Positions 3,740-54,017 are shown, counted from the first letter of the stretch. The stretch: DNA of 64,000 nucleotides from a virus (IMGVR_UViG_3300045988_176357:128053-192052); one strand, 5' to 3'. The notes: generated from the letters alone by a model not told the origin. Made by a program: numbers and translations.

Positions 3740-3779
3740 AGCAGAAAGTACAAACGGACGCAACGTCCGTAAGTTCATG

Positions 3780-35746: not shown

Positions 35747-36831
35747 GAACAAAAAGAGTACTGAAGAAAAATGCAATCAAGGCCTATAAAGCCTTTAACA
35801 GTGACATGACTTGCAAAGGCTTCCAATATGAAGTCGGCAAGACCTACAGGCATAATGCTGTCTTGAAACTGTGCGAGGCAGGCTTCCATGCTTGCGAAAG
35901 GCTGGCTGACTGTTTCAGTTTTTACCCGTTCAGGGAAGCTGAAACCAGAGTGGCCGAGGTGCTAGTCTGGGGTAAAGTCGAGTATGCAGATACAGGTGTA
36001 AAACTCTGCGCCTCAAATATCAAGATAGTCAGAGAACTTGCATGGAGCGAGGTGTTATCTCTGTGTAACACTGGCTACGATAACAGCGGCCACAGTAACA
36101 GCGGCAACCATAATAGCGGCAGCTGGAACAGTGGCAGCTTTAATAGCAGCAACTGGAACAGCGGCGACTGGAACAGTGGCGGCTTTAATAGCGGCAGCTG
36201 TAATAGCGGCAGCTGTAATAGCGGCAACTGGAACAGTGGCAGCCGTAACAGCGGCGACTATAATATAGGCAACTATAATATAGGCTACGGTAACAGCGGC
36301 AACCAGAACAGCGGCGACTATAATACAGGCGACTGTAACAGCGGCAACAATAACACCGGTGACTGGAATAGCGGCGACTATAACACCGGCAACTATAATA
36401 TAGGCAACTGGAATGCAGGTATATTCAATACAGGGGCTTGTGAATATGCTTTTGCGTTCAATCAGCTTGTCAAGAAACAAGACTTAGAATGTCTTCCAAG
36501 TATACCATTCCTACGTTTTAAGCTTGTCGAATGGATACCGGAAAAGCATATGTTGCCGGAAGAGAAAGAGCAGCACCCTAAGTATGCGACAGCCGGAGGT
36601 TATCTCAAGAAGTACGACTACAAGGAAGCCTTCAGAAAGTCCTTCGAGGAGGCAAAGCGCCTTCCGGATTGGCCCGAACAGCTTAAGAGGCTGAAGGCGC
36701 TGCCCAACTTCAACTTCAAAATCTTTGAAGAGATATCGGGTATCACTGCCGAGGAGTTAACAGGCAGCACTGTCGAGAAGTTGACTACGAAACCGAAACG
36801 CAAACGGGAAAAGAGCACTAAGGGTGCTTAA
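35743..36831 (+). CDS. NxGxx repeat protein, paralog 3
   Basis: Same family as 20644. Confidence 0.6.
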   Translation: MRTKRVLKKNAIKAYKAFNSDMTCKGFQYEVGKTYRHNAVLKLCEAGFHACERLADCFSFYPFREAETRVAEVLVWGKVEYADTGVKLCASNIKIVRELAWSEVLSLCNTGYDNSGHSNSGNHNSGSWNSGSFNSSNWNSGDWNSGGFNSGSCNSGSCNSGNWNSGSRNSGDYNIGNYNIGYGNSGNQNSGDYNTGDCNSGNNNTGDWNSGDYNTGNYNIGNWNAGIFNTGACEYAFAFNQLVKKQDLECLPSIPFLRFKLVEWIPEKHMLPEEKEQHPKYATAGGYLKKYDYKEAFRKSFEEAKRLPDWPEQLKRLKALPNFNFKIFEEISGITAEELTGSTVEKLTTKPKRKREKSTKGA

Positions 36832-38842: not shown

Positions 38843-39721
38843 ATGAGAGTACTGAAAAGTAGACCGATGACAGGATTCAAGGCAGTACAGTCCGATATGG
38901 CTGTCGACAATCCAAGAAGAATGGACGTCGGAACTGTGTACTCAACGAAATCTATGGCGTTGGCAGATCACAGTATGTTCTGTTTCGATGAGGAACTTGA
39001 AGACGCTGTGCGTGCATGCCTGTACAGTACGGCATTTAAGGTGTACAGATGCAAAGTCTGGGGCACAGTGCTGGATGTTGAAGGTCGCAAAATCGCACAG
39101 CACATACAGCTGGAATGCGAGTTGTCTATGCGCAAGCTTCTTAAATTGTGCAACAAGGGCGCAAGCAATTTAGGTCTCCATAACAGCGGCAGCTTCAATT
39201 TCGGAGACTGTAATGATGGCAACCAGAATTACGGGGACCACAATTTCGGCAGTAACAATGTAGGAAGCTACAACGATGGAAGCGGCAACTGCGGCAGTCA
39301 TAATTCCGGTAACTACAATTTAGGCAGCTACAATGCGGGCGGTGGATGGAATGCTGCCTGTCACACAGAGAGTTGCTTCTTTACAACAAAGAGTCATGTT
39401 GCGTTCAGGTTCTTCAATAAGCCGTACAGGGATGCCAGCATTACTGTACACACGCCTGATTTTCTTAACATCAGACCTGCTGTGTGGATTCCAGGTAAGT
39501 ATATGACTGACAAACTCAAAAGGCTTATGCCAAGAGGCGCGGATGTAGGCGGCTGCACTGTGTACTTTGACTACAAGACAGCCTTCATGAAGTCCTTCGC
39601 GGACGCCAGACGCAAACCTGACTGGCCCAAGCAACGCCAGATGCTGCTGGATCTGCCAAATTTCGACGCAAAGATATTCGAGGAGATATCAGGCATCAAG
39701 GAGGAGGAACTTGGATTGTAA
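38843..39721 (+). CDS. NxGxx repeat protein with a divergent N-terminal domain
   Basis: Repeats plus the conserved C-terminus. Confidence 0.5.
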   Translation: MRVLKSRPMTGFKAVQSDMAVDNPRRMDVGTVYSTKSMALADHSMFCFDEELEDAVRACLYSTAFKVYRCKVWGTVLDVEGRKIAQHIQLECELSMRKLLKLCNKGASNLGLHNSGSFNFGDCNDGNQNYGDHNFGSNNVGSYNDGSGNCGSHNSGNYNLGSYNAGGGWNAACHTESCFFTTKSHVAFRFFNKPYRDASITVHTPDFLNIRPAVWIPGKYMTDKLKRLMPRGADVGGCTVYFDYKTAFMKSFADARRKPDWPKQRQMLLDLPNFDAKIFEEISGIKEEELGL

Positions 39722-40083: not shown

Positions 40084-40815
40084 ATGACAGAAAGTAAATC
40101 AGAATTGCATTTCGTACGTATCAGAGAGAAAGACTCCAAAGAGCCGTTCTGTGATCCGTATGCGGACATCAAGTTTGTTGTTACGTCTTTCTTTAAGGAG
40201 CTGCCTCAGTTGTATGGAATCAAACTGCAGCCTGCCGAGGACAAGATAGACTACTTGAAGGCATGTCTTAAAGTGTTTCTCACCAGGTTGGAAGAGGATC
40301 CGCAGCCGGTCAAGGCACAGCTGGAAGCCTTTATTGCAGCAATGCAGAAGGCGTTTACTCCTGCCGAGATTCTGTTCTTCGGAGAGGAGTTCCTGTCCTA
40401 TGTGTTCTGCACCTTTGTGCTCCATTACAGACGCGACGCAAAGGTGGATAAACCGACCACTATGCGGCTCGCAAGCCTGCTGCTCACGCTGTCGGGATCC
40501 GTACCTGCTGATGTGTGGGCACGCATGATGAACGGTACACAGGAAGAGCTTAAAGCCAAATTGGAGTGTGCGGCCTCACATCTGGAAGAGGTGCGTGCAG
40601 AGTGTGTAGAAGACGCCTCGAAGACCATTCCTGACATCAAGGATCTGGCAGCTCAGGCAATGGGCGCTACAGGAAGCCAGAAATGGGAAGATGTTGCGGC
40701 AGCATGCGACAAGTATGTACAGGAAGCTGCAGAAGATGACGACAAGGTTATTGCAGCTGCACTCGCGTATCCTGACTATCCTACGCCGTACTTTGAGGTC
40801 ACAAAAGATGCTTGA
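40084..40815 (+). CDS. hypothetical protein
   Basis: ORF. Confidence 0.45.
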   Translation: MTESKSELHFVRIREKDSKEPFCDPYADIKFVVTSFFKELPQLYGIKLQPAEDKIDYLKACLKVFLTRLEEDPQPVKAQLEAFIAAMQKAFTPAEILFFGEEFLSYVFCTFVLHYRRDAKVDKPTTMRLASLLLTLSGSVPADVWARMMNGTQEELKAKLECAASHLEEVRAECVEDASKTIPDIKDLAAQAMGATGSQKWEDVAAACDKYVQEAAEDDDKVIAAALAYPDYPTPYFEVTKDA

Positions 40816-41431
40816 GATGTTGTTGCAGAAACTGAAGATCGCGCGCGAAAGCAGTTCGCGTGTTGTCTTCTGCTATAAGTATGTCTGGTCCCGAATCGAC
40901 GACTATGTGTCACTGACCAATCTGAGACTGGAAGCAATACAGGTCCGCGACGGCAAGGTCTTCCATACACAGGCCGCTCCAGTGCTTGATGTGAACCATG
41001 GTAAGCCCAGAGTCGCATTCGCAGATTCCGGTATCGTGCAGGTCACCTCAGGACCCCGATCGAACATTGTCTTGAGAGAACGTCTGCTGCACGCCAACGA
41101 GACAGCAGCTCCGGTTCCCTTTTGTGGAACCAGGGAAATTACAGAAAGCAGCGATGAGAAGGATCTTCAGGTAGTCTATGACTTCCTGACATCCGCAGCC
41201 TTTCCTGGCGTGGATATGCGCATGCCGCAGTTGTTCCGGATCACGAAGAACCCTGAAAGGCTGCGCCTGAACATCACACCTGACTTGCTGCAGGCTCTTG
41301 ATCTGGATCCCGGAACACCCAGTAAGGAGATACAGGATGCGTTCCTGAACAAACTGCCTTCCATTTCAGCGCAGACATCCGAAGGATACGTGTTGCCGTT
41401 CAACGTGTGCCGCATGTGTTTCACATGCTGA
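40803..41431 (+). CDS. hypothetical protein
   Basis: ORF. Confidence 0.4.
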
Positions 41432-41442
41432 CCAGCACACAA

Positions 41443-43010
41443 AGGACTCCTTGGCGCGTGAGCGCCATTGAACAAGAAAGTGAATTGCTGGAACACCTTA
41501 ACGGGTCATGCCGAAGGCAATCAGCAGCCGAGCTTATGGATGCCCAGACCGGGCGCCGTGAGAAGGTTCATCGACTATCCCGGAAGGGAGTACCCGAGCA
41601 GCCATGTGACCGGCAGGTCACGAAAGCAAGGGGAAGCACTCTGGCTCAGGAATGAGTCAATGATATAGTCAGTGCGCTTATGGAAACATAAGGAGTGGTC
41701 AGGAGTGACAACCTGAAACCTGCTACTGGGCGGCAACCGGTAGTGAACAGAACCATGGTCTCAAAATAGCAACATTATTTTGACGTTTTGATTTTCATAA
41801 AGGTGATGTATATTATCTGTATACAATAAGGAGCGCCATGTACAGAGCCCATAAGATACGCATAGATTGCACAAAAGAGCAGCACAGTCTGTTAATGCAG
41901 ACTGCAGGCTGCGCTCGTTATGCGTACAACTGGGGACTCGAGAAGTGGGGCAAGCAGTACGAAGCCTGGAAGGCTGATAGCAGCTTGGAGGAACCCAACT
42001 GGGTTAACATATCCAGACAGTGGACACAAGAGAAACCTGAATGGGCAAACAAGACAGCACGCAGTGCTGTTACCTGCTCACTGCGTAATCTCGGCACCGC
42101 CTTCAAGAACTTCTCAAGGCGCAAAGCAAAGTACCCGAAGAGGCATAAGAGGTCTCAAGGAATCTCCTTCCAGCTTGGAAACGATACCTGCAGTATCGAA
42201 GGCAACCGCATCAGGCTGCCTATCATAGACTACGTAAAGCTCCGTGAGACTCCACGATTCCAAGGCAAGATAACAGGCTACACAGTGCAGCTCATCGCTT
42301 CCCACTGGTACGTGACAGTCGCCTTCGACTGTCCAGACGTCCCCAAAGAAGCTCCAGAGTCCGTCGTCGGTATCGACGTAGGACTCCAGCACCCGGCTGT
42401 AGCCTCCGATGGAACAGTACTCCAGCTCCCTCTTGAGAAACTACAGAAGCTCGAAGCCAAACGGCGCAGAGCTCAGCGAGCCCTTTCAAGGAGCAAACGC
42501 AATTCCAATGCGCGAGAGCGCAAGCGTGATAGACTCCAACGTATACAGCAGAGGATCACCAACATCCGACAGGATGCAGTTCACAAGTTTACGACTGCAG
42601 TGTGCAAAAACCACGCCACTGTAGTCACCGAAGATCTGGACATAAACGAGCTCAAAGACAAGGCCCCCGCACGTTCAGTGCGCAGAGCCTACAACAGCTC
42701 CCTTATGGGACTCATTTTGTTCCAGATCTCGTACAAGGCGGTGCACCACGTAAAGGCACCCAAGTTCTTCCCGAGCACCAAGAGATGCTCAACTTGTGGA
42801 CACATTAAGGAGGCCATGCCTCCGCAAATCAGAACATACCATTGCGACCACTGCGGAGCCCATCTCGACAGAGATGAGAACGCAGCTCGCAACTTGATGT
42901 TGCAACCGTGGGTCACACGGTAAGAGGCGCGGTGATGGTACAGGCAGCGTCAGCTGCAGGTACCAGATGATCCGCGAAGACAGTCCGGTGCAACGCCGGA
43001 TGAGATCATG
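41443..43010 (+). mobile_element. IStron copy 4 (subfamily 2), apparently intergenic
   Basis: Hairpin ggcgc-gtga-gcgcc then the core; right-end hairpin atccgg-tgcaacg-ccggat + gagatcatg. Confidence 0.65.
41838..42923 (+). CDS. tnpB: TnpB, intact, 361 aa
   Basis: OrfB N-terminus; zinc finger. Confidence 0.85.
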   Translation: MYRAHKIRIDCTKEQHSLLMQTAGCARYAYNWGLEKWGKQYEAWKADSSLEEPNWVNISRQWTQEKPEWANKTARSAVTCSLRNLGTAFKNFSRRKAKYPKRHKRSQGISFQLGNDTCSIEGNRIRLPIIDYVKLRETPRFQGKITGYTVQLIASHWYVTVAFDCPDVPKEAPESVVGIDVGLQHPAVASDGTVLQLPLEKLQKLEAKRRRAQRALSRSKRNSNARERKRDRLQRIQQRITNIRQDAVHKFTTAVCKNHATVVTEDLDINELKDKAPARSVRRAYNSSLMGLILFQISYKAVHHVKAPKFFPSTKRCSTCGHIKEAMPPQIRTYHCDHCGAHLDRDENAARNLMLQPWVTR

Positions 43011-43119
43011 ACAGTGACTGGGTATATGCAGGCGGCATGATCGCTGCAAGTATAACAGGCATCGGCAAGCATAAGCCTAAGGTACTGTACACCAGAGGTA
43101 TGGACTTCTTCCGTAACTG

Positions 43120-43761
43120 GTGCGCCGCAAAACAGTGGAGTATCCAATGCTGCTGACAGAGTTGTTCGATACATGGGGAACCAAGCCTCTGCTGATGACG
43201 ACTGCGACCAACGGCTTGACACCCGGCAAAGACAAGCTGCTTGGGGTCTGTGTCAAGGACCCTGAGTTCAGCTCAGGTGACAGGCTGCTGCTCAACTACA
43301 CAACAGGCGTAGAACTTCAGCAGTCGTCGAAGTTTCATGGCATCAGTCAGCAGGACATGCAGAGCGCAGGCTTGCAGGAAGCCCAGTTCAAAGACGAGTT
43401 GGACAAGCTGCTATCAGAGAACAGCGTCGCGGTACTCACTTATAATGTACCTTTCCAGAGCAGCTTCTTAGGCGAATGTCTTCCGGAACTGGAAAGCTTG
43501 CCCCTCTATGACCTGACGATCATCGAGAAGGCAATCAGAAACGCCTATGCCTTCGACACTGAAGAGCTGGCGACGTTCAGCTCTTTCTACGCTGCCTGCT
43601 GCCACGCGGCTATGCCTGTACCTCTGGCTACACTGTGCAGGAATCTGAAGATGACTCGACAGCCTCCGCCAGGACAGCTTCCAATGGAACGGATGCTGGA
43701 CGTTTTGCAAGCGCTTTACAACGTAGCTTGCCTTGAAGATATTTCTGTGCTTCCGAGTTGA
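43120..43761 (+). CDS. DnaQ-like (DEDD) exonuclease-fold protein with substituted catalytic residues
   Basis: MTTATNGL in place of FDTETTGL; YN in place of HN; Exo III YDL retained. Confidence 0.35.
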   Translation: MRRKTVEYPMLLTELFDTWGTKPLLMTTATNGLTPGKDKLLGVCVKDPEFSSGDRLLLNYTTGVELQQSSKFHGISQQDMQSAGLQEAQFKDELDKLLSENSVAVLTYNVPFQSSFLGECLPELESLPLYDLTIIEKAIRNAYAFDTEELATFSSFYAACCHAAMPVPLATLCRNLKMTRQPPPGQLPMERMLDVLQALYNVACLEDISVLPS

Positions 43762-44260
43762 AGCTGGGAGTGACGAATCCTGTACCCAAAGCAGTCATCT
43801 ATATCTGCACCTGGGTACAGGGCTTAATGACAGGTGTGCAGGTCTAATCGATTTGCAGCATGCTGTCCTGTTTGTCAAAATTAACCCACAGGAATGTCTA
43901 TCCCACCGGACAATACAGAAGTACGAATCCCTAGCAGGCATCAAGCAACAGTGATTTGTCCGTGGCCTGATCAGCCGGTTTGACAAATTTGGTTTGAACC
44001 TACACGATGCAGCCGGACTTGGAAACTGTGCAGTTAGTCTGTGGTGCAGGTGTCACATAGTTGACCGATAACTGTACCATAGTCTAAGAGACAGAGGATA
44101 CCTGCTATTCGGGATACAGAGGGTATGAAGCTATCATCCCTTTAGTCGTTACTTCCTGCTTCTGTACGTGCGCAGCCTTATACTTGCTCAAGTCTATGCC
44201 GGATGAGACTGCGCCATCTTTAATTGAATACAATTTATGATACTACATAGGAGCTCCTAT
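43762..44260 (+). ncRNA. candidate retron msr/msd-type structured region (speculative)
   Basis: ORF-free ~500 nt directly upstream of the RT 5' exon; 10-bp inverted repeat cctgtaccca/tgggtacagg (43779-43821) and others. Confidence 0.2.
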
Positions 44261-44261
44261 T

Positions 44262-44360
44262 GTGTTGGATACATCTATCAGACCTCCGGATAAATGGAGG
44301 GCAGCAGCAATACCAAAGAAAGACGGATCGTTCAAAATATACTACATATTAGGTATACGT
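44262..44360 (+). CDS. retron-type reverse transcriptase, 5' exon (..AIPKKDGSF..)
   Basis: IPKKDGSF finger motif in a frame open from 44241; start codon uncertain (GTG or TTG). Confidence 0.45.
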
Positions 44361-45928
44361 AAAGGACGCCTTGGCGCGTGAGCGCCATTGAACAAGAAAG
44401 TGAATTGCTGGGACACCTTAACGGGTAATGCCGAAGGCAATCAGCAGCCGAGCTTATGGATGCCCAGACCGGGCGCCATGAGAAGGTTCATCGACTATCC
44501 CATATGGGAGTACCCGAGCAGCCTGGCTGCGACAGCAGCGAAAGCAAGGGGAAGCACTCTGGCTCAGGAATGAGTCAATGATATAGTCAGTGCGCTTATG
44601 GAAACATAAGGAGTGGTCAGGAGTGACAACCTGAAACCTGCTACTGGGCGGCAACCGGTAGTGAACAGAACCATGGTCTCAAAATAGCAACATTATTTTG
44701 ACGTTTTGATTTTCATAAAGGTGATGTATATTATCTGTATACAATAAGGAGCGCCATGTACAGAGCCCATAAGATACGCATAGATTGCACAAAAGAGCAG
44801 CACAGTCTGTTAATGCAGACTGCAGGCTGCGCTCGTTATGCGTACAATTGGGGTCTCGAGAGGTGGGGCAAGATGTACGAAGCCTGGAAGGCTGACAACA
44901 GCTTGGAGAAACCCAACTGGAAAAACATATCCAGACAGTGGACACAAGAGAAACCTGAATGGGCGAACAAGACGACACGCAGTGCTGTCACTTGCTCACT
45001 AAGCAATCTCGGTACTGCCTTCAAGAACTTCATAAGGCGCAAAGCAAAGTACCCGAAGAAGCACAAGAGGTCCCAAGGAATCTCATTCCAGCTTGGAAAC
45101 GATACCTGCAGTATCGAAGGCAACCGCATCAGGCTGCCTATCATAGACTACGTAAAGCTCAGAGAGCTTCCGCGCTTCCAAGGCAAAATCACAGGCTACA
45201 CAGTTCAGTACATAGCTTCCCACTGGTACGTGATAGTCGCCTTCGACTGTCCAGACGTCCCCAAAGAAGCGCCAGAGTCCGTCGTCGGTATCGACGTAGG
45301 ACTCCAGCAACCAGCTGTAGCCTCAGATGGAACCAAGCTAGAGCTACCCATAGAGAAGCTCCAGAAGCTCGAAGCCAAACGACGCAGAGCTCAGCGAGCC
45401 CTTAGCAGGAGCAAGAGGAATTCCAATGCGCGAGAGCGCAAACGGGCCAAGCTTCAACGTATACAACAGAAGATCATCAACATCCGTCAGGATGCAGTTC
45501 ACAAGTTTACGACTGCAGTGTGCAAAAACCACGCAACTGTAGTCACCGAAGATCTGAACATAAACGAGCTCAAAGACAAGGCCCCCGCACGTTCAGTGCG
45601 CAGAGCCTACAACAGCTCCCTTATGGGACTCATTTTGTTCCAGATCTCGTACAAGGCGGTGCACCACGTAAAGGCACCCAAGTTCTTCCCGAGCACCAAG
45701 AGATGCTCAACTTGTGGACACATTAAGGAGGCCATGCCTCCGCAAATCAGAACATACCATTGCGACCACTGCGGAGCCCATCTCGACAGAGATGAGAACG
45801 CAGCTCGCAACTTAATGTTGCAACCGTGGGTCACACGGTAAGATGCGCGGTGATGGTGCTTGTGACATTCGTCACGAGCTCCAGACGATCCGCGAAGACA
45901 ATCCGGTGCAACGCCGGATGAGATCATG
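44361..45928 (+). mobile_element. IStron copy 5 (subfamily 2) inside the RT gene
   Basis: ~93% identical to copy 4; same ends. Confidence 0.65.
44756..45841 (+). CDS. tnpB: TnpB, intact, 361 aa
   Basis: Near-identical to 41838. Confidence 0.85.
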   Translation: MYRAHKIRIDCTKEQHSLLMQTAGCARYAYNWGLERWGKMYEAWKADNSLEKPNWKNISRQWTQEKPEWANKTTRSAVTCSLSNLGTAFKNFIRRKAKYPKKHKRSQGISFQLGNDTCSIEGNRIRLPIIDYVKLRELPRFQGKITGYTVQYIASHWYVIVAFDCPDVPKEAPESVVGIDVGLQQPAVASDGTKLELPIEKLQKLEAKRRRAQRALSRSKRNSNARERKRAKLQRIQQKIINIRQDAVHKFTTAVCKNHATVVTEDLNINELKDKAPARSVRRAYNSSLMGLILFQISYKAVHHVKAPKFFPSTKRCSTCGHIKEAMPPQIRTYHCDHCGAHLDRDENAARNLMLQPWVTR

Positions 45929-46791
45929 ACAGAAGGTACCTGTTGATACCTAACGACGAACTGAAACAAAGACAAAGAGAAATCCTCGACTACCTGTACA
46001 AGGCGCATCTGAGAGTGCACGAGGCTGCTGTCGGCTTCATGCCGAACAAGTGTACTCTCAACGGCTGCTTGCAGCATGCTGCCGATGCACAGGTAATTAT
46101 CAACCTTGATGTACATGATTTCTTCCCCAGCTTTCCTGTAGATAAAGTCAGGTCAGTGTTGACAGCCCAGCTAGGCGCGGCAGTTGCAGACTACATTGTC
46201 GATATAGCAACTTTTAAAGGTAAGCATAGACAGCAGTTGCCTCAAGGTGCGCCGACTAGCCCGTATCTTACCAACATTGCACTTTACAAGTTCGATTGCA
46301 ATATGGCGGCAAATGCGAAACGCAGAGGATTCACGTATACGCGATATGCGGATGACATCACATTGGCGAGCAGCAGCGAGATGCGTGTCAACTACATCAA
46401 GACTCTGATTCACGGAACTGAAAGAAGGTTGCGTGCGCTCGGTCTTACGCTGTCCAGGAAGAAAACAAATGTCATATTCAGGAACAGTCCGCGTGTTCCG
46501 AGACGCATAACAGGGGTAACTGTTCGTAAGGATGGATTCGGATTCAATGCACCTATCGGCTTGCGCAAGCAGGCTCGGGCAATGATACACAACCTGTACA
46601 CAGCACTTAAGAGCGGTGTGCCTGCACAGGAACTTGTACCTGAATATCGCAGTGCAATGGGTACTGTGCAGTATTGCGACTTTATTCGCAGTGCCAGTAT
46701 TGTTCCTGAATGTGCAACAGCCGACCCGGCTATAAAAACACATGAACTCGAATATGTAAAGGGGGTCTTCCGTGCCTATAGACATTATTGA
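45929..46791 (+). CDS. retron-type reverse transcriptase, 3' exon
   Basis: Aligns with Ec86 RT: NLDVHDFFPS, QLPQGAPTSPYLTN, RYADDITL, ITGVTV. Confidence 0.75.
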
Positions 46792-47692
46792 TGGCAATAC
46801 ATCACAATCAGAAATACGCGTTGGCGAAATCTTCAAAGAGTATGGCAATGTAGCTATAAACTTTAATGTCAGCGGCTACCGGACTATGTCGCTTGACGAG
46901 TTCAGGAAGGACGTGCTGCCGTCTTTACAGCCAGCAAAGTGCAGCCAGGCTATGTCGTATTATGTAATACGCGACTTGTCGCACAAAACCTGCTATTGTC
47001 TTCTTCCTGACTGTGTCGAAGAATTCCGTGTCTCATCCTGGTATGAGATCACAACAGACAAGGTGAGAGAAAAGCTCCTGCAGGAAGCCGGACCAAGTGC
47101 AGAGACGGAAATTGTCTTTGACTTGCCTGTGCCTTTGCTCAAGTATCGGTACAATGAGACCTCATGGACCGCGATCGTAAAGATCCCGCATACTAAATTC
47201 ATGTACAGGTCGACATTGCTGGCAGAATGCATTGGCGACGGCATTCTCATCAACTTGCCTCCGTGTATCTTCAAAGTCAAAGCCAACAACAATGACGTAG
47301 TCCAGCAAGTCGCAGTATATGTCATTAAAGCAGACAGTGTTGTTTTTGACAACATCAAACTGGCACATTTGCCTTTACCGAACATATACAACGATGGCAG
47401 CGTGTGCATGGGCAGCACACGCATTGAGGATCAGGCTAGCATTAAGTCAAAGGGGCAGTTGGTGATGGCTGTATGGGATTTGTTCATCAACTCTAACTGG
47501 AACTTGGATCTGCTGACATCAAGTATATTGCCGGACAACTTGATCGACGTGTATGAGTCATTGCCAGTACATGCAGTAGATACAGGGTGCAGCGCCGGAC
47601 GTGTTTTGTCCTTGCTGCAGTTGCTGGATTGTCTGCACGACGATACCGCTTACCTTAATTTGAACTGGGCAGGTCTATATGTTCACGTCTGA
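46772..47692 (+). CDS. E2-like ubiquitin-conjugating enzyme homolog (C-terminal UBC-like domain)
   Basis: LPLPNIYNDGSVCMG matches HPN-x3-4-G-x-[IV]-C; start overlaps the RT stop by 20 nt. Confidence 0.5.
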   Translation: MPIDIIDGNTSQSEIRVGEIFKEYGNVAINFNVSGYRTMSLDEFRKDVLPSLQPAKCSQAMSYYVIRDLSHKTCYCLLPDCVEEFRVSSWYEITTDKVREKLLQEAGPSAETEIVFDLPVPLLKYRYNETSWTAIVKIPHTKFMYRSTLLAECIGDGILINLPPCIFKVKANNNDVVQQVAVYVIKADSVVFDNIKLAHLPLPNIYNDGSVCMGSTRIEDQASIKSKGQLVMAVWDLFINSNWNLDLLTSSILPDNLIDVYESLPVHAVDTGCSAGRVLSLLQLLDCLHDDTAYLNLNWAGLYVHV

Positions 47693-47933
47693 TCTGTTTG
47701 CACGCGCTCCCGAAGCTGCGTTTAGGCAAAGGGCAATGAAGCCGATCAGACAGCGCCCACTTAAGTACATCATCCTGTCCGGTACAGAGATTGATGGAAC
47801 CATGAGCGGTACCTTGATACGTAGCTTAGTCGTGCTCCAATTACGCTCGAAAAGATCAAAGGACGTTATGCGTGCTGTGCTGGAAGTACCAGTCAACGAT
47901 GACGGCCTTAACATTAAAACACTTGAAAACTGA
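47679..47933 (+). CDS. hypothetical small protein
   Basis: ORF within the cassette. Confidence 0.25.
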   Translation: MFTSDLFARAPEAAFRQRAMKPIRQRPLKYIILSGTEIDGTMSGTLIRSLVVLQLRSKRSKDVMRAVLEVPVNDDGLNIKTLEN

Positions 47934-47944
47934 AAGGAAAAACG

Positions 47945-48361
47945 ATGGTAAAAATCTACACTAAAGGGCACGATACTGTGCATCATCCTTCGCATTATGC
48001 AACACAGGCACTCCCATGTCACATAGAGTGTCAGGATATCAGGCGGCATTTACCGCAGGCGGTTGCGGACGCTTTCAAGTATGTATGGCGTTCCGGCTCA
48101 AAGGGCACACCTAAAGATGCAGAGACAGACATCAGGAAAGCCGTCTGGTATCTTGACGATTTCTTTGAGCACTTTACAGTCAGTCAGTTCGACTTCACAA
48201 CAGCAAAAGCTGTATTCGATCTGGTTGCCCTGGTATCACAGGAGACATGGCGAGCAGAGGCATTGACATACCTTGTACATGGCAAAGTCAATGAGGCACG
48301 TGAAGTTCTTGTGAAATATCTTGATGAGAAGGAGAAAGTTTATGCGCAGCAAAGTGTTTGA
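47945..48361 (+). CDS. hypothetical protein
   Basis: ORF within the cassette. Confidence 0.35.
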   Translation: MVKIYTKGHDTVHHPSHYATQALPCHIECQDIRRHLPQAVADAFKYVWRSGSKGTPKDAETDIRKAVWYLDDFFEHFTVSQFDFTTAKAVFDLVALVSQETWRAEALTYLVHGKVNEAREVLVKYLDEKEKVYAQQSV

Positions 48362-49262
48362 AACCGGCGGGTACATTTACATCGACAGCCCCAACGCAAA
48401 GGGCTGGCATCAATGCGAACCGGAAGAGTTCTTTGCCAACCAGCGTCCATACGATACAGAGCTCAACAAGGATCTGCTGAAGTGGACAGGCGCCAAAGTC
48501 GGAAAGGATCTGCTGCTGCAGGTAGCGGCACTGGCAAACTGTTTTCCCAGAATGGAAATCATGGTCTGCCTGTATTACAGCAGCGCAGAACAGAAGTGGC
48601 TGGCGAATGTACCTAAGCAGAAGGGTTCCGGTGCGCACGTCAAGTACGATGATGAGGATTTTGCGCCGCCGAAAGGCTACGAGTTCCTCGGCACCATACA
48701 CACTCATCCTGAAATGTCGGCTTTCTGGTCATGTGTCGATCGCAATGATCAGAACCGTAAGAACGGGTTGCATCTTGTACTCGGTCTGAGAAACGGAAAG
48801 ATCAACGAGGTCCTGTGCAGCCTGTTCTACAACGGTAAGCAGTACGATCAGCCTGATGCGTATGAGCTGCCTGCAGCGGATGACCCGCTGCCTGAAGTCA
48901 ATGAGGACTGGAAAGCGAAAGTGACCATACAGGAGCTTGCAGAACCTAAACTGAATATCATAAAGGACACTGACGCATTTCTCGAACCCAGATGGTTGCC
49001 TGATGCAGATGGCAGGTATAAGTTCAGTTACGACAGTGACAGCATCAGTCCATGCCTGTCAGACACAGCCAGTTACTTCGATGTTCTGCACGCTGCAGTC
49101 AAGCTCAATGAGCAACAGATGTATGATCTTTGTGGCCAACTGCTCGAGATACTTGGTCAACAAGAACTGGCCGACGAAGTTGATGTAGCAGCCTTTGATG
49201 CAGCTCTTGGAGATGAAGATGATACATGTTGTGAGGCACGGTATGATCAGGAATCCACTTAA
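48342..49262 (+). CDS. JAB/MPN (JAMM) metalloprotease-like
   Basis: HTHPEMSAFWSCVD matches HxHx7Sx2D. Confidence 0.65.
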   Translation: MRSKVFETGGYIYIDSPNAKGWHQCEPEEFFANQRPYDTELNKDLLKWTGAKVGKDLLLQVAALANCFPRMEIMVCLYYSSAEQKWLANVPKQKGSGAHVKYDDEDFAPPKGYEFLGTIHTHPEMSAFWSCVDRNDQNRKNGLHLVLGLRNGKINEVLCSLFYNGKQYDQPDAYELPAADDPLPEVNEDWKAKVTIQELAEPKLNIIKDTDAFLEPRWLPDADGRYKFSYDSDSISPCLSDTASYFDVLHAAVKLNEQQMYDLCGQLLEILGQQELADEVDVAAFDAALGDEDDTCCEARYDQEST

Positions 49263-50148
49263 TGTCGTAGTGATTGGGTGCGGAGGTATCGGCGGCTATC
49301 TTTGTCGACTGCTTCCACAGACAATGGCATGCCTGTATGTCGATTCCCTGGGTGCCGACCAGGCTCAGCAGCTCATGCAGTCGGAAGGGATGTCTGATGA
49401 CGTGCGAGCTTCAGGCGCAGTCTTCAGCTCCCTTACCCTTATAGATGGCGACACGTTCTCAGGACATAACGCACTTAGGCAGGAAGGAACGGCTGGCAGC
49501 AAGCTGGCAACTGTCATGTCTATGATACGCAGCACAGACGCCTTCAGTACCTGGCTCAACGCCACGGAACTTGTCGGGTATAACAACTACATCACGCCCA
49601 GGAACATACATAAAATCTTAGATCCCTTGTATAACGTCGTCATATTCCTGTGTGTCGACAACCATAAAACAAGGTACGAAGTGACCAGATGGGCAGTGGA
49701 TCAGAAAACACAGAATATCCTGATCATTAACGGCGGCAATAAGAAAACAGCCGGGAATGTCACGGTATTCCAGAATAACGCAGGCAAGCTTCTCGATCCC
49801 CCTATCTACAAGCTGTATCCTGAAGTGACGGACAAGTTTGATCGTCGTCCCGACGAGATAGACTGCGGCTCAGTGTCGGTAACCAACGACCAGACAGCAG
49901 TGACCAACAATATGATAGCATCTATAATGCTCGCCATGTTCAGCAAGTATGTTCGCACAGGGGGCTTCGACCAGAAAACCAGACATAAAGATGCCAATGG
50001 AAACAACATTGTAGTCAGGAAAAATGAAGTCGTAGTCGACTTCGAAACCATGACTATGCAATCGTTCGCACATTCACCGGACACAGACAATACGCCTTTG
50101 CAGTCGGCACTCGAGGGAGTTCCGGAAGGCGAGACAGAAATCATATAA
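49195..50148 (+). CDS. E1-like (ThiF/MoeB family) adenylyltransferase
   Basis: VIGCGGIGG Rossmann motif; LIDGDTFSGHNALRQ compared with DxDxVExSNLNRQ. Confidence 0.6.
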   Translation: MMQLLEMKMIHVVRHGMIRNPLNVVVIGCGGIGGYLCRLLPQTMACLYVDSLGADQAQQLMQSEGMSDDVRASGAVFSSLTLIDGDTFSGHNALRQEGTAGSKLATVMSMIRSTDAFSTWLNATELVGYNNYITPRNIHKILDPLYNVVIFLCVDNHKTRYEVTRWAVDQKTQNILIINGGNKKTAGNVTVFQNNAGKLLDPPIYKLYPEVTDKFDRRPDEIDCGSVSVTNDQTAVTNNMIASIMLAMFSKYVRTGGFDQKTRHKDANGNNIVVRKNEVVVDFETMTMQSFAHSPDTDNTPLQSALEGVPEGETEII

Positions 50149-50521: not shown

Positions 50522-51943
50522 ATGATCATCATTGCAACTGCTAACAACAACGAAAACCTCAACAACATCAGGATCAACCTTGACAACAGCATCTCTCTCG
50601 GTCAGCTTCTCGACAGAGATGATGTTCGTGCATTCTTCCACAATGCCAGCAAAGAGAGCATTCTGGCAAGCCTCGTTACCATTGACGGACTCGATGCCTA
50701 TGCCATTACGAATGCGAGCTCTCTGACTGTTGACAATACTATGGAATTGCAGTTCGACATCTACGGCAGAGCACCGGAGACCGCACATACAGCTGCTGCT
50801 TCCGCCGGGTTCGTCACAATTACTCAGGGCGGAGGTTTCAACAGCAAGCGTGTGCCTATTGTGTCAGATACGACAAGAGCAGGGGATGTGCTTACACAGG
50901 ATGTGGCCAATTTCTTCGCCACAACTGTGGATACTCTGCACAATATGCGTATTCTTATCAATGATGTCGAGGCGGAAACAACAGCTGTACTGCACGACGG
51001 CGACGCGATTACTCTCATGTCCAGAAAGTGCGGCGACAAGGGGGCATGTGTACCCATTCTTGCAATTACGCATACTGACGGATCTGTGACGAGACATGCA
51101 GTCCTTGCAGGTTCCAGGCTCAAGGAATGTCTCTCCAGGATTGTTCCCGGTGCGGTAGTGCTGTCTATCGACGGTACAGCGGTACCCATGAACTTCTATG
51201 ATGCTATTGTAGAAGGCAAGCTGGTTGACAAGGACATGCAAGTGACTGTCAACGATAACAAGAAGTGCACGGTGCATTGCTGCGCCAATGACGGCAGTGA
51301 TCCGGTCGACATGATCCTGGATGATGGCAGTTCTGTGATGGACCTGCTTACCAAAGTACAGGACAAGTTTGAAAACGCTGAGATCTATGTCTTTGACGTG
51401 GACGGCGATCTGGTACCGGAAGCTTTCGCCGATACCATCCTGACTAATACACTTGTCGTTGATGGTATGTATGTAACTTTCAGTTCGCTGCGTGAGATGC
51501 CTGTTGTACATGGCTATATGAACATGGAAGACGACAGCGAAGAAGATGAAGAAGATGAAGAAGATGGTGCTGAGTATGCAGATGACGAGCAGGTACTTGA
51601 AGGTCCTGCAGAAGATGCTGTAGGCGCCGTAACAGTCGTTCTTCCCGGGGGCTTCAGCACCTCTCAGGTCGCAATCAGGAACAATGTGACGAAGCTTCGT
51701 GATGTTGTTCTCAGCGCACGTATTCTGAATATGTCTGCGATGAACGAAAGCCAGGCGCAGACTCTCGTATACACAGTGAACGATGTCGAGAGCAATCTCG
51801 ATGATACTCTGAGCATCGGTGATGTGATCCGGATGTCTGCACGTAAAGCAGGCGACAAAGGAAGTGCATTGAAAGTTACTGTCAAGCTGATGGATGCCAC
51901 CGAATTCCGGTATGACGTGGAGCCGGGGACAAGGCTCGAGGCT
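50522..51943 (+). CDS. multi-domain ubiquitin-like protein, exon 1
   Basis: Repeated ~90-aa modules ending (I/M)S(R/A)K(C/A)GDKG; acidic linker; ORF runs into the IStron E 5' end. Confidence 0.45.
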
Positions 51944-53606
51944 TAACAACCTCCATTGAGGAGTGATCCTCAATGCAAAGAAAGTGAATTGCTAATAGAT
52001 CCCAAGAGTCTCACGACGCCTTTAACAAGGATCGAAAGAGAAAACAAAGAAGTGAGGATACCGCAAGGCGACAGTAAGCCTAAACGGGAGTGACAACGGA
52101 CGTTTAGCAGCCGAGCCTTGTATCGAGAGATACCCGGTACAAGGAAGGTTCATCGACTAGGACATCGTGTCCGTACCCGAGCAGCCGTGTGCGTGATAAC
52201 GCACGAAAGCAAGGGGAAGTACTCTGGCTCAGGAATGAGTCAATGAAATAGTCAGTGCTTCATGGAAACATGAAGAGTGGTCAGGAGTGACAACCTGAAA
52301 CCTGCTACTGGGCGGCAACCGGTAGTGAACAGAACCATGGACTTCAATTGTATTGTTATTTCGTCAAGTTTTATTTACCGTTTTGATCTTTACAGAACGG
52401 AGTTATAATACTCTCAGTAACTGGAGAACACTTTGGAACCAAGAGCACACATAATCAGATTGTACCCGACAAGGGCACAGGAGAAGCAGCTGAAGAATAC
52501 CATCGGCTGCGCTCGTTATGCGTACAATTGGGCTCTCGAGAAGTGGCGGGAGATGTATGCCGCACATGATAAGGACAAGGCTTCTCCAAAGCCAAGTGCC
52601 TTGAAGCTGACCAAGTTATGGACTCAGGAGAAGCCTGACTGGGCACATGAGACAGCTTATTGCAGCCAGCAAAGAGCGATACATAACGTAGGCGTCGCTT
52701 ATCAGCGCCTTTAGAGGGGCTTATCGGCGAAGCCGAAGTTCCATAAGAAGGGCGGCAAGGAGACGTTTTACGTTGATAATGCGAAGGTCGCATGGTACGG
52801 CAATAGAATCCAGTTGCCCGACATCGGACGTGTCCGCGTAGCGGAGCAGATCCGTTTCGAGGGCAAGGTAATGGGCTACACAGTGTCCCATTATGCCGGA
52901 CAGTGGCATCTCATAGCTCAGGTCAACGCCGAAGGTGATGTGAAACCTTATTGTGCCAATCCAGAGTCCGTCGTCGGTATCGACGTAGGACTTCTGAATC
53001 CTGCTGTAGCCTCCGATGGAACCGTCTTGGAGCTCCCTATTGAGAAGCTTCAGAAGCTCGACGCCAAACTCAGGCGACAGCAGAAGGCACTCTCCCGTTC
53101 ACAAAGAAACTCCAGAAACCACGCGAAGCTTCTCATAAAGAAGCAGCGTACACAGAATAAGATCAACAACATCCGTAAGGATGCAGTACATAAGTTCACG
53201 ACCACCATTGCCAAGAGCCACGGCAAGGTAGTCATCGAAGATCTGGACATCCAAGGAATGAAGGATAAAGCTCCTTCAAGAGCCGTCAGAAGGGCGCATA
53301 ACAGTTCCCTCATGGGCGCCATCCATCGGCAGCTCTCCTACAAAGTCCAGCACCTGATCAAGGTGAATCGCTTCTTCCCGTCTTCCAAGACCTGCAGCAA
53401 CTGCGGGCACATAAGGAGCGCCCTTGATTTAAGTGAACGTACATATCATTGCGACCACTGCGGAGCGGTCATCGACCGCGACCTCAATGCCGCAATCAAC
53501 TTGATGAAATCAGGGCTGGTCGAGCCCGAAGCGTCTGTGGAGCAAGTCGGTACCGACTTGCGTCGAAGCAGAAAGTACAAACGGATGCAATGTCCGTAAG
53601 TTCATG
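51944..53606 (+). mobile_element. IStron copy E (~98% identical to copy A) inside the multi-ubiquitin-like gene
   Basis: Same 5' end (gaggct|taacaacctccattgaggagtgatcctca) and right end; junction ...RLEA|TDFLMS is in frame. Confidence 0.7.
52433..53599 (+). CDS. tnpB: TnpB with in-frame TAG at 52712-52714
   Basis: Same TAG position as copy A. Confidence 0.75.
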
Positions 53607-54017
53607 ACAGATTTCCTTATGTCTAATTATCCGGACTCCATTGTACTTGGCATCAATGGTGTCAGGGTAGATCCTGAGTTCTATGTGCCTGTTCTTGATG
53701 GCTTCACCCTGAACAGAGATACTGTGCTGATTGTGAAGGCCAGCCCGAAGATGACAGTGCACTGTTACTCCGGACATGTCGAGCCAAGCCTCTACTGCAC
53801 ATCTTATAAGATGAATTACGACAGTACCGTACAGGACTTGCTTAAACTGGTACAGAAGGACTTCGGCAATGAAGACATACGCGTGACGCAGATTGATCTC
53901 AAGGACGTACCGGAAGACTTTATGCAGGTTATCCTGGCAGGCACGTTTATTACAGAGCAAATGGTTGTTACTTTCAATGAGCTCAATGGAGCGGGAAAGG
54001 CACGCAAGACACTGTAA
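53607..54017 (+). CDS. multi-ubiquitin-like protein, exon 2 (ends ..NGAGKARKTL)
   Basis: In-frame continuation after the IStron. Confidence 0.45.
   Translation, partial: TDFLMSNYPDSIVLGINGVRVDPEFYVPVLDGFTLNRDTVLIVKASPKMTVHCYSGHVEPSLYCTSYKMNYDSTVQDLLKLVQKDFGNEDIRVTQIDLKDVPEDFMQVILAGTFITEQMVVTFNELNGAGKARKTL

What the first reader, a model, noticed from the sequence alone, without database searches (positions are those of the whole stretch)
41443..45928. Two ~93%-identical IStron copies in direct orientation bracket a 1.35-kb segment; the downstream copy splits the reverse transcriptase gene
Copy 4 (41443-43010) follows a gene stop and copy 5 (44361-45928) sits inside the RT N-terminal coding region. 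Between them lie the degenerate DnaQ-like ORF and an ORF-free structured region. RT expression therefore requires IStron splicing, and the tnpB guide (omega) RNA at the right end of copy 5 would be transcribed into the RT exon. This is the IStron intron-versus-guide-RNA conflict, here in a defence-like gene.
Basis: partly seen in the sequence, partly recalled or inferred. Interest (0 to 1): 0.6.

Follow-up and report, generated by a model that had tools for sequence, protein, structure and literature searches.

The report
Two IStrons splitting neighbouring phage genes
Two copies of a known kind of selfish element (a self-splicing intron fused to an RNA-guided TnpB nuclease gene) sit inside two neighbouring genes of a gut or rumen phage, one of them a retron-type reverse transcriptase, so both genes can only be made whole by RNA splicing; this is a clear new example of a known phenomenon rather than a new one.

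Summary
Two direct repeats, 41441-43014 and 44361-45932, are 93.2% identical. Each carries a group I ribozyme core, an intact tnpB gene and a structured right end.

Three closely related contigs lack both elements and give the exact insertions: 41401-43014 (1614 bp) and 44333-45932 (1600 bp), which flank 1318 bp. Copy 5 splits a retron-type reverse transcriptase (RT). Exon 1 (44262-44332) joined to exon 2 (45933-46791) restores a 309-aa protein that is 98% identical to uninterrupted homologues.

- Copy 4 does not follow a gene stop. It also splits a conserved 244-aa gene, and that stop codon lies inside the intron.
- The "ORF-free structured region" is a minus-strand protein gene whose only in-frame stops are TAG. 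The phage appears to read TAG as an amino acid: none of 42 long ORFs ends in TAG.

Both elements insert after xGTT and end in UCAUGACAG. Neither carries tnpA. Their tnpB is under purifying selection (dN/dS 0.18).

The intron-versus-guide-RNA conflict is a reasonable inference from published IStron work, but it is not shown here. Verdict: new member of a known kind, moderate interest.

The parts
40808..41400 (+). Exon 1 of a conserved 244-aa gene of unknown function ('gene A'), ending in codon phase 2 with ..CCG TT
   Evidence: Empty-site alignment. The spliced product ...SEGYVLPFDWVYAGGMIAAS... matches the uninterrupted L004 ORF.
41401..43014 (+). IStron copy 4 (1614 bp). It comprises a 40-nt P1-extension hairpin (41401-41440), the internal guide sequence (IGS) GGACUCC (41444-41450), the ribozyme core to about 41745, a promoter-like site (41788-41816), tnpB (41838-42923), and a three-stem-loop right end ending UCAUGACAG at 43014.
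43015..43156 (+). Exon 2 of gene A. Its first ~16-18 nt (TGACTGGGTATATGCAGG) would be the omega-RNA guide of copy 4.
43147..43761 (+). 204-aa DEDDh/DnaQ-like ORF. By eye the Exo I, II and III acidic residues look replaced (LLMTTATNGL in place of DxETTGL).
   Evidence: PADLOC DEDDh E=1e-6, NCBIfam Pol III epsilon E=0.004. No Pfam, PHROGs or PDB sequence hit.
43577..44248 (-). 223-aa minus-strand gene whose only in-frame stops are TAG (11 TAG between the upstream stop at 44440 and the TGA at 43577).
   Evidence: In the 43700-44300 stretch all eight in-frame stops are TAG. Substitutions concentrate at the third codon position: 28/14/68 against L002 and 6/2/19 against L001. The protein is conserved in L002, L030, L032 and L033, and Q is the residue most often aligned with TAG.
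44262..44332 (+). RT exon 1: GTG start, codons 1-23 plus TT of codon 24.
44333..45932 (+). IStron copy 5 (1600 bp). It comprises a variant 28-nt P1-extension hairpin (44333-44360), the IGS GGACGCC (44364-44370), the ribozyme core to about 44663, a promoter-like site (44706-44734), tnpB (44756-45841), and a right end / putative omega-RNA scaffold (about 45815-45932) ending UCAUGACAG.
45933..46791 (+). RT exon 2. Its first ~16-18 nt (AAGGTACCTGTTGATACC) would be the omega-RNA guide of copy 5.
   Evidence: RVT_1 79.5 bits, starting at profile position 14. Retron Ec86 RT is the best PDB relative, E=1e-24.

Best explanation
The two repeats are non-autonomous IS200/IS605-type IStrons. Each is a group I self-splicing intron fused to a tnpB gene and a right end that encodes the TnpB guide-RNA scaffold. 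Neither carries tnpA.

Each has inserted without a target duplication immediately 3' of an xGTT motif inside a protein-coding gene of a large gut or rumen phage that appears to read TAG as an amino acid. Copy 4 sits in a conserved 244-aa gene. Copy 5 sits in codon 24 of a retron-type reverse transcriptase. Both are in codon phase 2.

Inferred mechanism, step by step:
1. The last 4-6 exon nucleotides plus the first intron C pair with the IGS GGAC(U/G)CC to form P1, with a U.G wobble at the 5' splice site.
2. The ribozyme excises the element at the terminal G of UCAUGACAG. This restores TT+T (Phe) in gene A and TT+A (Leu) in the RT.
3. Transcripts that are not spliced, or that start at the internal tnpB promoter-like site, supply TnpB and an omega-RNA. 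Its scaffold is the right end and its guide is the first ~16 nt of the downstream exon.
4. That ribonucleoprotein would cut intron-less alleles (xGTT followed by the guide match) and promote retention or copying of the element.
5. Because splicing cuts the scaffold from the guide, the two fates of the RNA exclude each other.

Shown here: the anatomy, the exact boundaries, restoration of the reading frames, conservation of the RNA structures, and purifying selection on TnpB and the RT. Inferred from published IStron work: splicing activity, omega-RNA production and the antagonism between them.
For: Exact insertions and restored genes:
- Contigs L004, L001 and L002 lack the elements and are collinear across both junctions.
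- The spliced RT equals the 309-aa homologues. The spliced gene A equals the L004 ORF.

Ribozyme:
- Full-length Intron_gpI matches at E about 1e-9.
- RNAalifold on seven related cores gives 83 pairs, 36 of them with compensatory double changes.
- MFE folds recover P1 (exon GUU plus intron C against GGAC), the P1-extension hairpin and P2 at three different insertion sites.
- The 5' exon ends in U and the intron ends in G.

P1 and target co-adaptation:
- G44368 in the copy 5 IGS pairs with exon C44329. Other family members have U there, opposite an exon A.
- The window has CCGTT where all three empty relatives have CCATT, a synonymous difference at a position that pairs with the IGS.

TnpB:
- Pfam OrfB_IS605, HTH and TNB domains all hit. 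NCBIfam guided_TnpB scores 212.7 bits against a cut-off of 100.
- Full-length match to ISDra2 TnpB, E=2e-42. The GIDVG, TEDLN and DRDENAA motifs align to the corresponding motifs of the best-scoring PDB relative.
- dN/dS is 0.18 between the copies and 0.14-0.17 against L006.

Right end:
- Three stem-loops are predicted, z = -3.5 to -4.7.
- The stems differ by compensatory changes between copies 4/5 and the second subfamily (copies 1-3): ACCGUG/CACGGU against GGGCU/AGCCC, and AUCCGG/CCGGAU against ACGGAC/GUCCGU.
- The GGUCA loop (GGUCG in copy 3) and the UCAUGACAG terminus are conserved.

Other support:
- Four independent insertion sites share xGTT.
- RT dN/dS against L004 is 0.065.
- Published mechanism: bioRxiv 10.1101/2023.11.20.567912; PMC13521648; PMC4227781.
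Against: - No RNA data exist, so splicing and the omega-RNA are unproven.
- The Rfam scores are below the gathering threshold.
- P1 of copy 4 has only 4 base pairs, and I found no convincing P10.
- No tnpA was found in the window (the queries were recalled from memory), so how the elements moved is unknown.
- The left-end hairpin of copy 5 differs from the canonical 40-nt one, with unknown effect.
- The TAM is inferred from only four sites.
Confidence: 0.85

Rival explanations
1. The insertions do not splice, or splice negligibly. The RT and gene A would then simply be disrupted, and the locus would be a recently inactivated module littered with IS elements.
For: The Rfam scores fall below the gathering threshold. 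P1 of copy 4 is weak. Most relatives carry uninterrupted genes: the P0001 cluster has 430 members.
Against: The exon junctions restore both reading frames exactly. The ribozyme structure is kept by compensatory changes. The copy 5 IGS has a change that lengthens P1 with its own exon. No frameshift or stop has accumulated in either split gene. The RT differs from L004 mostly at synonymous sites, with dN/dS 0.065.
Confidence: 0.08
2. The RT is made without splicing, by internal initiation at TTG 45943. An AAGG lies 7 nt upstream. The product would be a 282-aa protein lacking the first 27 residues.
For: An open frame runs from 45943 and there is an SD-like AAGG at 45933-45936.
Against: The product would lack the conserved IPKKDGSLRxL finger motif, which is present in all homologues and aligned in the retron Ec86 RT. 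Exon 1 is kept intact and nearly identical to that of the uninterrupted relatives.
Confidence: 0.05
3. The tandem arrangement is an assembly artefact produced by collapsing or mis-joining repeats.
For: Repeats of 1.6 kb are a classic cause of mis-assembly, and contig L035 breaks inside both copies.
Against: L035 independently links the right end of copy 4, the 1318-bp segment and the left end of copy 5 at 99% identity. The copies differ by 7% and have different left ends, so they are distinguishable. Both junctions fit the empty sites to the nucleotide.
Confidence: 0.02

Closest known systems
Group A (IS200/IS605-type) IStrons such as CdISt1 / CdiIStron of Clostridioides difficile (PMC4227781; bioRxiv 10.1101/2023.11.20.567912)
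   Same: - The group I ribozyme is at the 5' end, tnpB follows, and a structured right end carries the 3' splice site.
- Insertion is 3' of a short T-ending motif with no target duplication, and the 5' exon ends in U.
- The U.G pair is flanked by base pairs within P1.
- The element ends in ..CAG.
- The splice sites coincide with the transposon ends.
- Many copies lack tnpA.
- Copies differ in the P1/P2 region.
   Different: - The target is xGTT rather than TTGAT, ATTAT or TTTAT.
- The terminus is ACAG rather than TCAG.
- TnpB is only about 33% identical to any TnpB in cultured-phage records.
- The host is an uncultured phage that appears to recode TAG, not a Firmicute chromosome.
- There are no tnpA remnants inside the element.
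CboIStron (IS607-type) of Clostridium botulinum, the system in which the intron versus omega-RNA antagonism was measured
   Same: The right end serves as both the omega-RNA scaffold and the 3' splice-site determinant. A nexus-loop to 3'-tail pseudoknot is possible here too: loop GUCA against UGAC, two nucleotides before the terminal G. The TAM doubles as the 5' strand of P1.
   Different: CboIStron carries the serine recombinase TnpA(S), has a GG-ending TAM (TGGG), a 5' exon ending in G and a CGG terminus. None of these applies here.
ISDra2 TnpB-omegaRNA (PDB 8BF8/8EXA)
   Same: There is full-length homology, E=2e-42. The RuvC-region motifs and the zinc-finger cysteines are present. The guide is taken from the DNA flanking the right end.
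   Different: ISDra2 has no intron and its TAM is TTGAT.
Phage group I introns carrying homing endonuclease genes (T4 td/nrdB, Twort orf142), including recoded intron endonucleases in alternative-code phages (bioRxiv 10.1101/2021.08.26.457843)
   Same: These are self-splicing introns inside phage genes, and a nuclease cuts intron-less alleles of co-infecting relatives. The window also carries such introns, with TAG-rich GIY-YIG and HNH-like ORFs.
   Different: Here the nuclease is RNA-guided (TnpB), and its guide RNA overlaps the 3' splice site.
Retron reverse transcriptases (Ec86; St85 family)
   Same: These are the best PDB, NCBIfam and PADLOC relatives. The RT has the YADD motif and the retron-typical VTG motif (RRITGVTV).
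   Different: The RT is below every curated cut-off (155.7 bits against 235). No msr-msd was found; the upstream 500 bp is a protein gene on the other strand. The gene is phage-borne and syntenic with a Prok-E2 / JAB / ThiF cassette.

Membership tests
Group I intron (Rfam RF00028) | Match to the covariance model at the curated gathering score | tested here: not met
   46.5 and 43.2 bits against a gathering score of 50. The matches are full-length (model 1-253), E about 1e-9 in a 5.5-kb search.
Group I intron (Rfam RF00028) | Conserved paired core supported by covariation | tested here: met
   RNAalifold on 7 related cores gives 83 pairs, 36 with changes on both sides that keep the pair.
Group I intron (Rfam RF00028) | 5' splice site after a U that forms a U.G wobble in P1 with an internal guide sequence, and a terminal G at the 3' end | tested here: met
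   The exons end ..GTT and the introns end ..ACAG. The MFE folds pair GUU|C with GGAC.
Group I intron (Rfam RF00028) | Self-splicing activity | not testable with these tools
   This needs RNA data or an in vitro assay.
IStron, IS200/IS605 type (group A) | A group I intron and an IS200/IS605 ORF (tnpB) within one mobile unit whose DNA ends coincide with the splice sites | tested here: met
   Empty sites in L004, L001 and L002 define ends that restore both ORFs. The same unit, with the same 40-nt left end, sits at different sites in L006 and L029.
IStron, IS200/IS605 type (group A) | Insertion 3' of a conserved short motif, no target-site duplication, variable 3' flank | tested here: met
   The four sites are GCCGTT, ATCGTT, AGAGTT and TTAGTT. 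The 3' flanks are unrelated.
IStron, IS200/IS605 type (group A) | Y1 (HUH) TnpA, or remnants of it, placing the IS in IS200/IS605 rather than IS607 | tested here: not met
   No ORF lies between the ribozyme and tnpB. tblastn with IS200 and IS608 TnpA found nothing below E=0.7 in the window. Assignment to the IS605 type rests on the T-ending target, the ..CAG terminus and NCBIfam IS200_TnpB as the best model (238 bits, below its 425 cut-off).
TnpB RNA-guided nuclease | HTH, OrfB_IS605 (RuvC) and zinc-ribbon TNB domains above curated cut-offs | tested here: met
   Pfam scores are 72-73, 52-53 and 49-50 bits, all above the gathering scores. NCBIfam guided_TnpB scores 212.7 against 100.
TnpB RNA-guided nuclease | Intact RuvC D-E-D triad | tested here: met
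   GIDVG, TEDLN and DRDENAA align to GVDLG, VEDLN and DRDENAA of the best PDB relative. Both copies retain them.
TnpB omega-RNA | Structured scaffold that overlaps the 3' end of tnpB and runs to the right end, with the guide taken from the flank | tested here: inconclusive
   Three stem-loops are predicted, z = -3.5 to -4.7. Stem covariation between the subfamilies was read by eye. No curated model exists, none was built here, and there are no small-RNA data.
Retron (RT plus msr-msd ncRNA) | RT passing a curated retron model | tested here: not met
   retron_St85_RT scores 155.7 bits against a cut-off of 235. The best PADLOC model is RT_XIII at 161 bits, and many retron types score similarly.
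Retron (RT plus msr-msd ncRNA) | Adjacent structured msr-msd ncRNA | tested here: not met
   The 500 bp upstream evolves as a minus-strand coding sequence. No Rfam hit.
DEDDh (DnaQ-like) exonuclease | Family-model match with the catalytic D-E-D-D-h residues | tested here: inconclusive
   The matches are weak: PADLOC DEDDh E=1e-6 and NCBIfam E=0.004. No Pfam or PDB hit. By eye the Exo I, II and III acidic residues are replaced.
Stop-codon-recoded phage (TAG read as an amino acid, code 15-like) | TAG absent as a terminator and present in-frame in conserved genes | tested here: met
   None of 42 long + strand ORFs ends in TAG (TGA 22, TAA 20). ORFs with 11, 15 and 20 in-frame TAG exist. Codon-position bias and cross-contig protein conservation support the minus-strand gene. 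A GIY-YIG domain is recovered after translating TAG as Q.
Stop-codon-recoded phage (TAG read as an amino acid, code 15-like) | Suppressor tRNA(CUA) | tested here: not met
   No tRNA gene was found in this 64-kb window. The rest of the genome is not available.

The most novel reading that the evidence does not exclude
The two phase-matched IStrons lie in the same orientation, apparently within one transcription unit, and might act as more than passive passengers. They have nearly identical internal guide sequences and identical 31-nt 3' termini. Three possibilities follow:
1. TnpB and omega-RNA occupancy of the right end of copy 5 could gate production of the retron-type RT.
2. Splicing from the 5' splice site of copy 4 to the 3' splice site of copy 5, or recombination between the copies, would give an in-frame fusion of gene A to the RT. 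It would remove the 1.3-kb cassette that holds the DEDDh-like gene, the TAG-containing gene and RT exon 1.
3. The TnpB ribonucleoproteins could cut intron-less RT alleles of co-infecting relatives. L004 has the TAM plus a 17/18 guide match. That would be an RNA-guided form of the intron-mediated competition between phages.
Probability: 0.15. Interest if true: 0.65.

Novelty: new member of a known kind. Interest (0 to 1): 0.38.

Why it matters
IStrons are the only known elements in which one RNA must serve both as a self-splicing intron and as a nuclease guide. Almost all experimental work uses Clostridial copies.

This locus offers a divergent family:
- its target is xGTT and its terminus ACAG;
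- its TnpB is about 33% identical to any TnpB in cultured-phage records;
- it sits in an uncultured large phage that appears to recode TAG.

The boundaries are fixed to the nucleotide by natural empty sites. There are two diverged copies in adjacent genes, and there are signs that the internal guide sequence and the exon have adapted to each other. All of this makes the splicing-versus-guide trade-off, and RNA-guided homing between co-infecting phages, testable in a second, independent system.

The locus also shows that a gap with no ORFs in such a phage can be a TAG-containing gene rather than a non-coding RNA. That matters for anyone annotating these genomes.

Tried and rejected
- **Retron msr-msd in the 500-bp gap upstream of the RT.** Rejected. 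The gap evolves with third-codon-position bias on the minus strand and encodes a conserved protein if TAG is read through. That protein has no Pfam or PHROGs hit.
- **Rfam at gathering threshold.** No hits. The E-value mode was needed.
- **Close relatives among cultured phages.** megablast of 43000-50000 found none. blastn of copy 4 found only a 110-nt intron-core match in Alteromonas phages. TnpB by tblastn reached at most 34% identity.
- **Host or an autonomous copy in bacterial genomes.** The right-end pattern gave 0 hits. The ribozyme-core pattern gave one 1.6-kb MAG contig, which is not informative.
- **Metagenome scan.** My left-end pattern was one base short for the copy 4/5 type. As a result the TAM rests on four sites only.
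- **tnpA.** tblastn with IS200 and IS608 TnpA sequences recalled from memory found nothing.
- **Long-range pairing (P9.0/P10 or an ORF-enclosing stem) by RNAduplex.** The output was uninterpretable and no conserved helix emerged.
- **Origin of the variant 28-nt left end of copy 5.** There is no other copy in the window.
- **Exact copy 5 TnpB protein in the public gene index.** Not on record.

Full report
**1. The observation**

blastn aligns window 41441-43014 with 44361-45932 at 93.2% identity over 1581 columns, in direct orientation. Identity is uneven across the element:

| Segment | Identity |
|---|---|
| Ribozyme core | 94.8% |
| 92-nt spacer before tnpB | 100% |
| tnpB | 92.9% |
| 91 nt after tnpB | 83% |

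The last 31 nt are identical. A 300-nt block, 41621-41920 = 44539-44838, is 100% identical. An independent assembly contig, L035 (UMGV01070832.1, 99% identical), runs from inside copy 4 to inside copy 5 (window 41635-44579). The tandem arrangement is therefore not an assembly artefact.

**2. Exact boundaries from natural empty sites**

A search with the 282-aa RT ORF found uninterrupted 309-aa homologues: P0001 (98% identical, a cluster of 430 sequences), P0002 (90%) and P0003 (78%). Their contigs L004, L001 and L002 share gene order with the window but lack both elements.

In L004 the alignment is collinear with window ..41400 | 43015-44332 | 45933.., with no nucleotide lost or duplicated. 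The elements are therefore 41401-43014 (1614 bp) and 44333-45932 (1600 bp), and they flank 1318 bp. The first 40 nt of copy 4 and the first 28 nt of copy 5 differ from each other, which explains the miss at the left ends.

The 40-nt left end of copy 4 (CAACGTGTGCC...GCACAC) belongs to the mobile unit. It recurs at two unrelated insertion sites in other phage contigs, L006 and L029. Copy 5 carries a different 28-nt hairpin at this position.

**3. Both copies split genes**

*Copy 5 and the RT.*
- Exon 1 runs from a GTG start at 44262 to 44332. It encodes (M)LDTSIRPPDKWRAAAIPKKDGS plus TT.
- Exon 2 starts at A45933. The join gives TTA (Leu) and then RYLLIPNDELKQ.., exactly as in P0001-P0003.
- Unspliced, the frame runs into the intron and stops at 44379-44381.

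*Copy 4 and gene A.*
- Joining 40808-41400 to 43015-43156 gives a 244-aa product ending ..SEGYVLPFDWVYAGGMIAAS..QCC.
- This matches the uninterrupted ORF of L004.

Both 5' exons end in codon phase 2 with TT.

**4. What the elements are**

*Ribozyme.*
- Each copy gives a full-length Rfam Intron_gpI match (46.5 and 43.2 bits; E about 1e-9; gathering score 50).
- Related cores occur at 2116, 31711, 32177, 51931 and 63690. A further copy 2 core lies near 10683; blastn similarity to copy 5 starts at 10878.
- RNAalifold on seven cores predicts 83 pairs, 36 of which keep pairing through changes on both sides.
- MFE folds of three different exon-intron junctions recover three features. These are P1 (exon ..GUU plus intron C paired with the IGS GGAC, with U.G at the splice site), a P1-extension hairpin, and P2 with a GUGA loop.
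- The elements end in G, within the conserved UCAUGACAG. That motif occurs exactly five times in the window, once at each IStron right end.

*TnpB.*
- Both 361-aa ORFs pass the Pfam HTH_OrfB_IS605, OrfB_IS605 and Cas12f1-like_TNB models. They also pass NCBIfam guided_TnpB, 212.7 bits against a cut-off of 100.
- They match ISDra2 TnpB over its full length, E=2e-42. The GIDVG, TEDLN and DRDENAA motifs align to the corresponding motifs of the best-scoring PDB relative.
- dN/dS is 0.18 between the copies, with dS 0.22, so the protein is under selection.

*Promoter.* A conserved promoter-like site (TTGATT, 17 nt, TATTAT) precedes each tnpB. This is a consensus match only.

*Right end.*
- Three stem-loops are predicted between the last codons of tnpB and the terminus, z = -3.5 to -4.7.
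- Compared with the second IStron subfamily in the window (copies 1-3), the stems differ by compensatory changes. SL1 is ACCGUG/CACGGU against GGGCU/AGCCC. SL3 is AUCCGG/CCGGAU against ACGGAC/GUCCGU.
- The SL1 loop GGUCA (GGUCG in copy 3), the SL3 loop GCAAC (GCAAU in copies 2 and 3) and the tail UCAUGACAG are conserved.
- The loop GUCA is complementary to UGAC, which lies two nucleotides before the terminal G.
- This is the layout in which a nexus pseudoknot overlaps the 3' splice-site determinants in the studied IStron.
- I read the covariation by eye and did not build a model.

*No transposase.* No tnpA lies inside the elements, and none was detected in the window.

**5. Target and P1**

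Four independent insertion sites read GCCGTT, ATCGTT, AGAGTT and TTAGTT before the element. The shared motif is therefore xGTT, and it is also the 5' strand of P1. Two details suggest selection for P1 pairing:
- The copy 5 IGS is GGACGCC where the other members have GGACUCC. Its G pairs with C at -4 of the RT exon.
- At the gene A site the window has CCGTT, where all three empty relatives have the synonymous CCATT. The G pairs with the IGS.

The empty RT site of L004 keeps the TAM and matches the would-be guide at 17 of 18 positions. The empty gene A sites match the guide but lack GTT.

**6. What lies between the copies**

1. Gene A exon 2 (43015-43156).
2. A 204-aa ORF (43147-43761) with a weak DEDDh signal: PADLOC E=1e-6 and NCBIfam E=0.004. 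It has no Pfam, PHROGs or PDB hit. By eye the catalytic acidic residues are replaced, so 'degenerate DnaQ-like' is fair but weakly supported.
3. This gap is conserved in length upstream of the RT in distant relatives, and the invariant alignment columns fall three bases apart.
   - On the minus strand one frame is interrupted only by TAG, in the window and in all six relatives.
   - Substitutions concentrate at the third codon position: 28/14/68 against L002 and 6/2/19 against L001.
   - The TAG-read-through protein is conserved across five loci, and Q is the residue most often opposite TAG.
   - This is a 223-aa gene running from 44248 down to 43577, not an RNA element.
4. RT exon 1 (44262-44332).

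**7. Context**

No long + strand ORF in the window ends in TAG (TGA 22, TAA 20). Several ORFs carry many in-frame TAG codons. One of them is a GIY-YIG endonuclease lying just downstream of the group I intron core at 32177-32485. The window therefore comes from a phage that appears to read TAG as an amino acid. Recoded intron endonucleases have been described in alternative-code phages.

The RT belongs to the retron clade. Its best PDB relative is the Ec86 RT, E=1e-24. Its best PADLOC model is RT_XIII, and it scores 155.7 bits on NCBIfam retron_St85 against a cut-off of 235. It passes no curated model and has no adjacent ncRNA.

The RT sits in a module conserved across phage contigs of 41-181 kb. 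Downstream lie Prok-E2_D, JAB and ThiF genes that resemble a PRTRC cassette. 'Defence-like' is a resemblance, not a finding.

**8. Mechanism and comparison**

The anatomy fits group A (IS200/IS605-type) IStrons. These insert after a T-ending motif without a duplication, have a 5' exon ending in U that pairs inside P1, end in ..CAG, and vary in P1/P2 between copies.

Published experiments on other IStrons show three relevant things:
- the splice sites coincide with the transposon ends;
- the right end is both the omega-RNA scaffold and the 3' splice-site determinant;
- TnpB and omega-RNA structure repress splicing.

By inference the same trade-off applies here. Full-length RT and gene A need splicing, and RNA that keeps scaffold and guide joined cannot have spliced. 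None of this is measured here.

The differences from described IStrons are the target (xGTT), the ACAG terminus, a distant TnpB (at most 34% identity to any in cultured-phage records), the absence of tnpA, and the phage host.

**9. History of the pair**

dS between the two tnpB copies (0.22) exceeds dS between the window RT and the empty L004 RT (0.15). The copies were therefore probably acquired separately, rather than one copying from the other in this genome.

The 300-nt block of perfect identity indicates later gene conversion between them. Recombination across the repeats, or splicing from the 5' site of copy 4 to the 3' site of copy 5, would give an in-frame gene A-RT fusion. This is possible in principle, since duplicated 3' determinants can be used as alternative sites. 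I found no evidence that it happens.

**10. Verdict**

The locus is a well-defined new member of a known kind of element, and its interest is moderate.

Noticed in passing
Its start lies 14 nt from the divergent RT start, across a palindromic GGAGCTCC that could serve as a ribosome-binding site for both genes. Its last ~60 codons overlap the 3' end of the DEDDh-like gene on the other strand.
   Followed up: yes
whole window: None of 42 long + strand ORFs ends in TAG (TGA 22, TAA 20), and several ORFs carry many in-frame TAG codons. The phage appears to read TAG as an amino acid, probably Gln. No tRNA gene lies in the window.
   Followed up: partly
window 32518-33219 and 33459-34475 (+): Two TAG-rich ORFs (15 and 20 in-frame TAG) lie downstream of the group I intron cores at 31711-31981 and 32177-32485. 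The first is a GIY-YIG endonuclease once TAG is read as Q (Pfam 24.6 bits). The second has an HNH-like motif by eye only, with no Pfam hit.
   Followed up: partly
window ~2118-3783, ~10683-12353, ~51933-53610 (right ends exact; left ends not determined): Three further IStrons belong to a second subfamily, whose tnpB is about 65-70% identical in DNA to that of copies 4 and 5. In every copy 1-type copy found in metagenomes the sequence upstream of P2 begins GAGGCTTAACAACCTCC. Copy 2 has GGAGCTTAACAACTCC, so the two sides of that hairpin co-vary. I did not determine their left boundaries or target.
   Followed up: partly
window 2594-3739 and 52421-53599: The tnpB genes of IStron copies 1 and 3 each carry one in-frame TAG at the same codon (..AYQRL[TAG]RGLSAK..). 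They are full-length only if TAG is read through. Copies 2, 4 and 5 have none.
   Followed up: partly
window 41621-41920 = 44539-44838: This 300-nt block is 100% identical between two copies that otherwise differ by about 7% (tnpB dS 0.22). That suggests recent gene conversion between the copies.
   Followed up: partly
L005 (IMGVR_UViG_3300045988_177579) 2436-3677; L007 9245-9506: Related phage contigs carry a tnpB plus right end with no ribozyme; in L005 the homology starts at the tnpB promoter-like region. They also carry a 262-nt right-end remnant. The family therefore also exists in intron-less or truncated forms.
   Followed up: no
window 46772-50148; L001, L002, L030-L033: The retron-type RT is always followed by Prok-E2_D, JAB and ThiF/E1-like genes, with weak matches to the PRTRC system proteins B, A and ThiF. 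It is always preceded by the same three small genes. This RT-E2-JAB-E1 module is conserved in phage contigs of 41-181 kb, and I know of no description of it.
   Followed up: partly
window 20905-21504, 35989-36400 and others: Arrays with a 15-nt period lie inside several paralogous ORFs that look like pentapeptide-repeat proteins, for example 38843-39721 with ..NSGSFNFGDCNDGNQNYGDHNFGSNN...
   Followed up: no
L014, L018, L022, L023, L025: Metagenome contigs carry a related group I intron core inserted after GACGGGTT in a conserved gene (..GGGYDGL..). These came up only because my search pattern was mis-designed.
   Followed up: no
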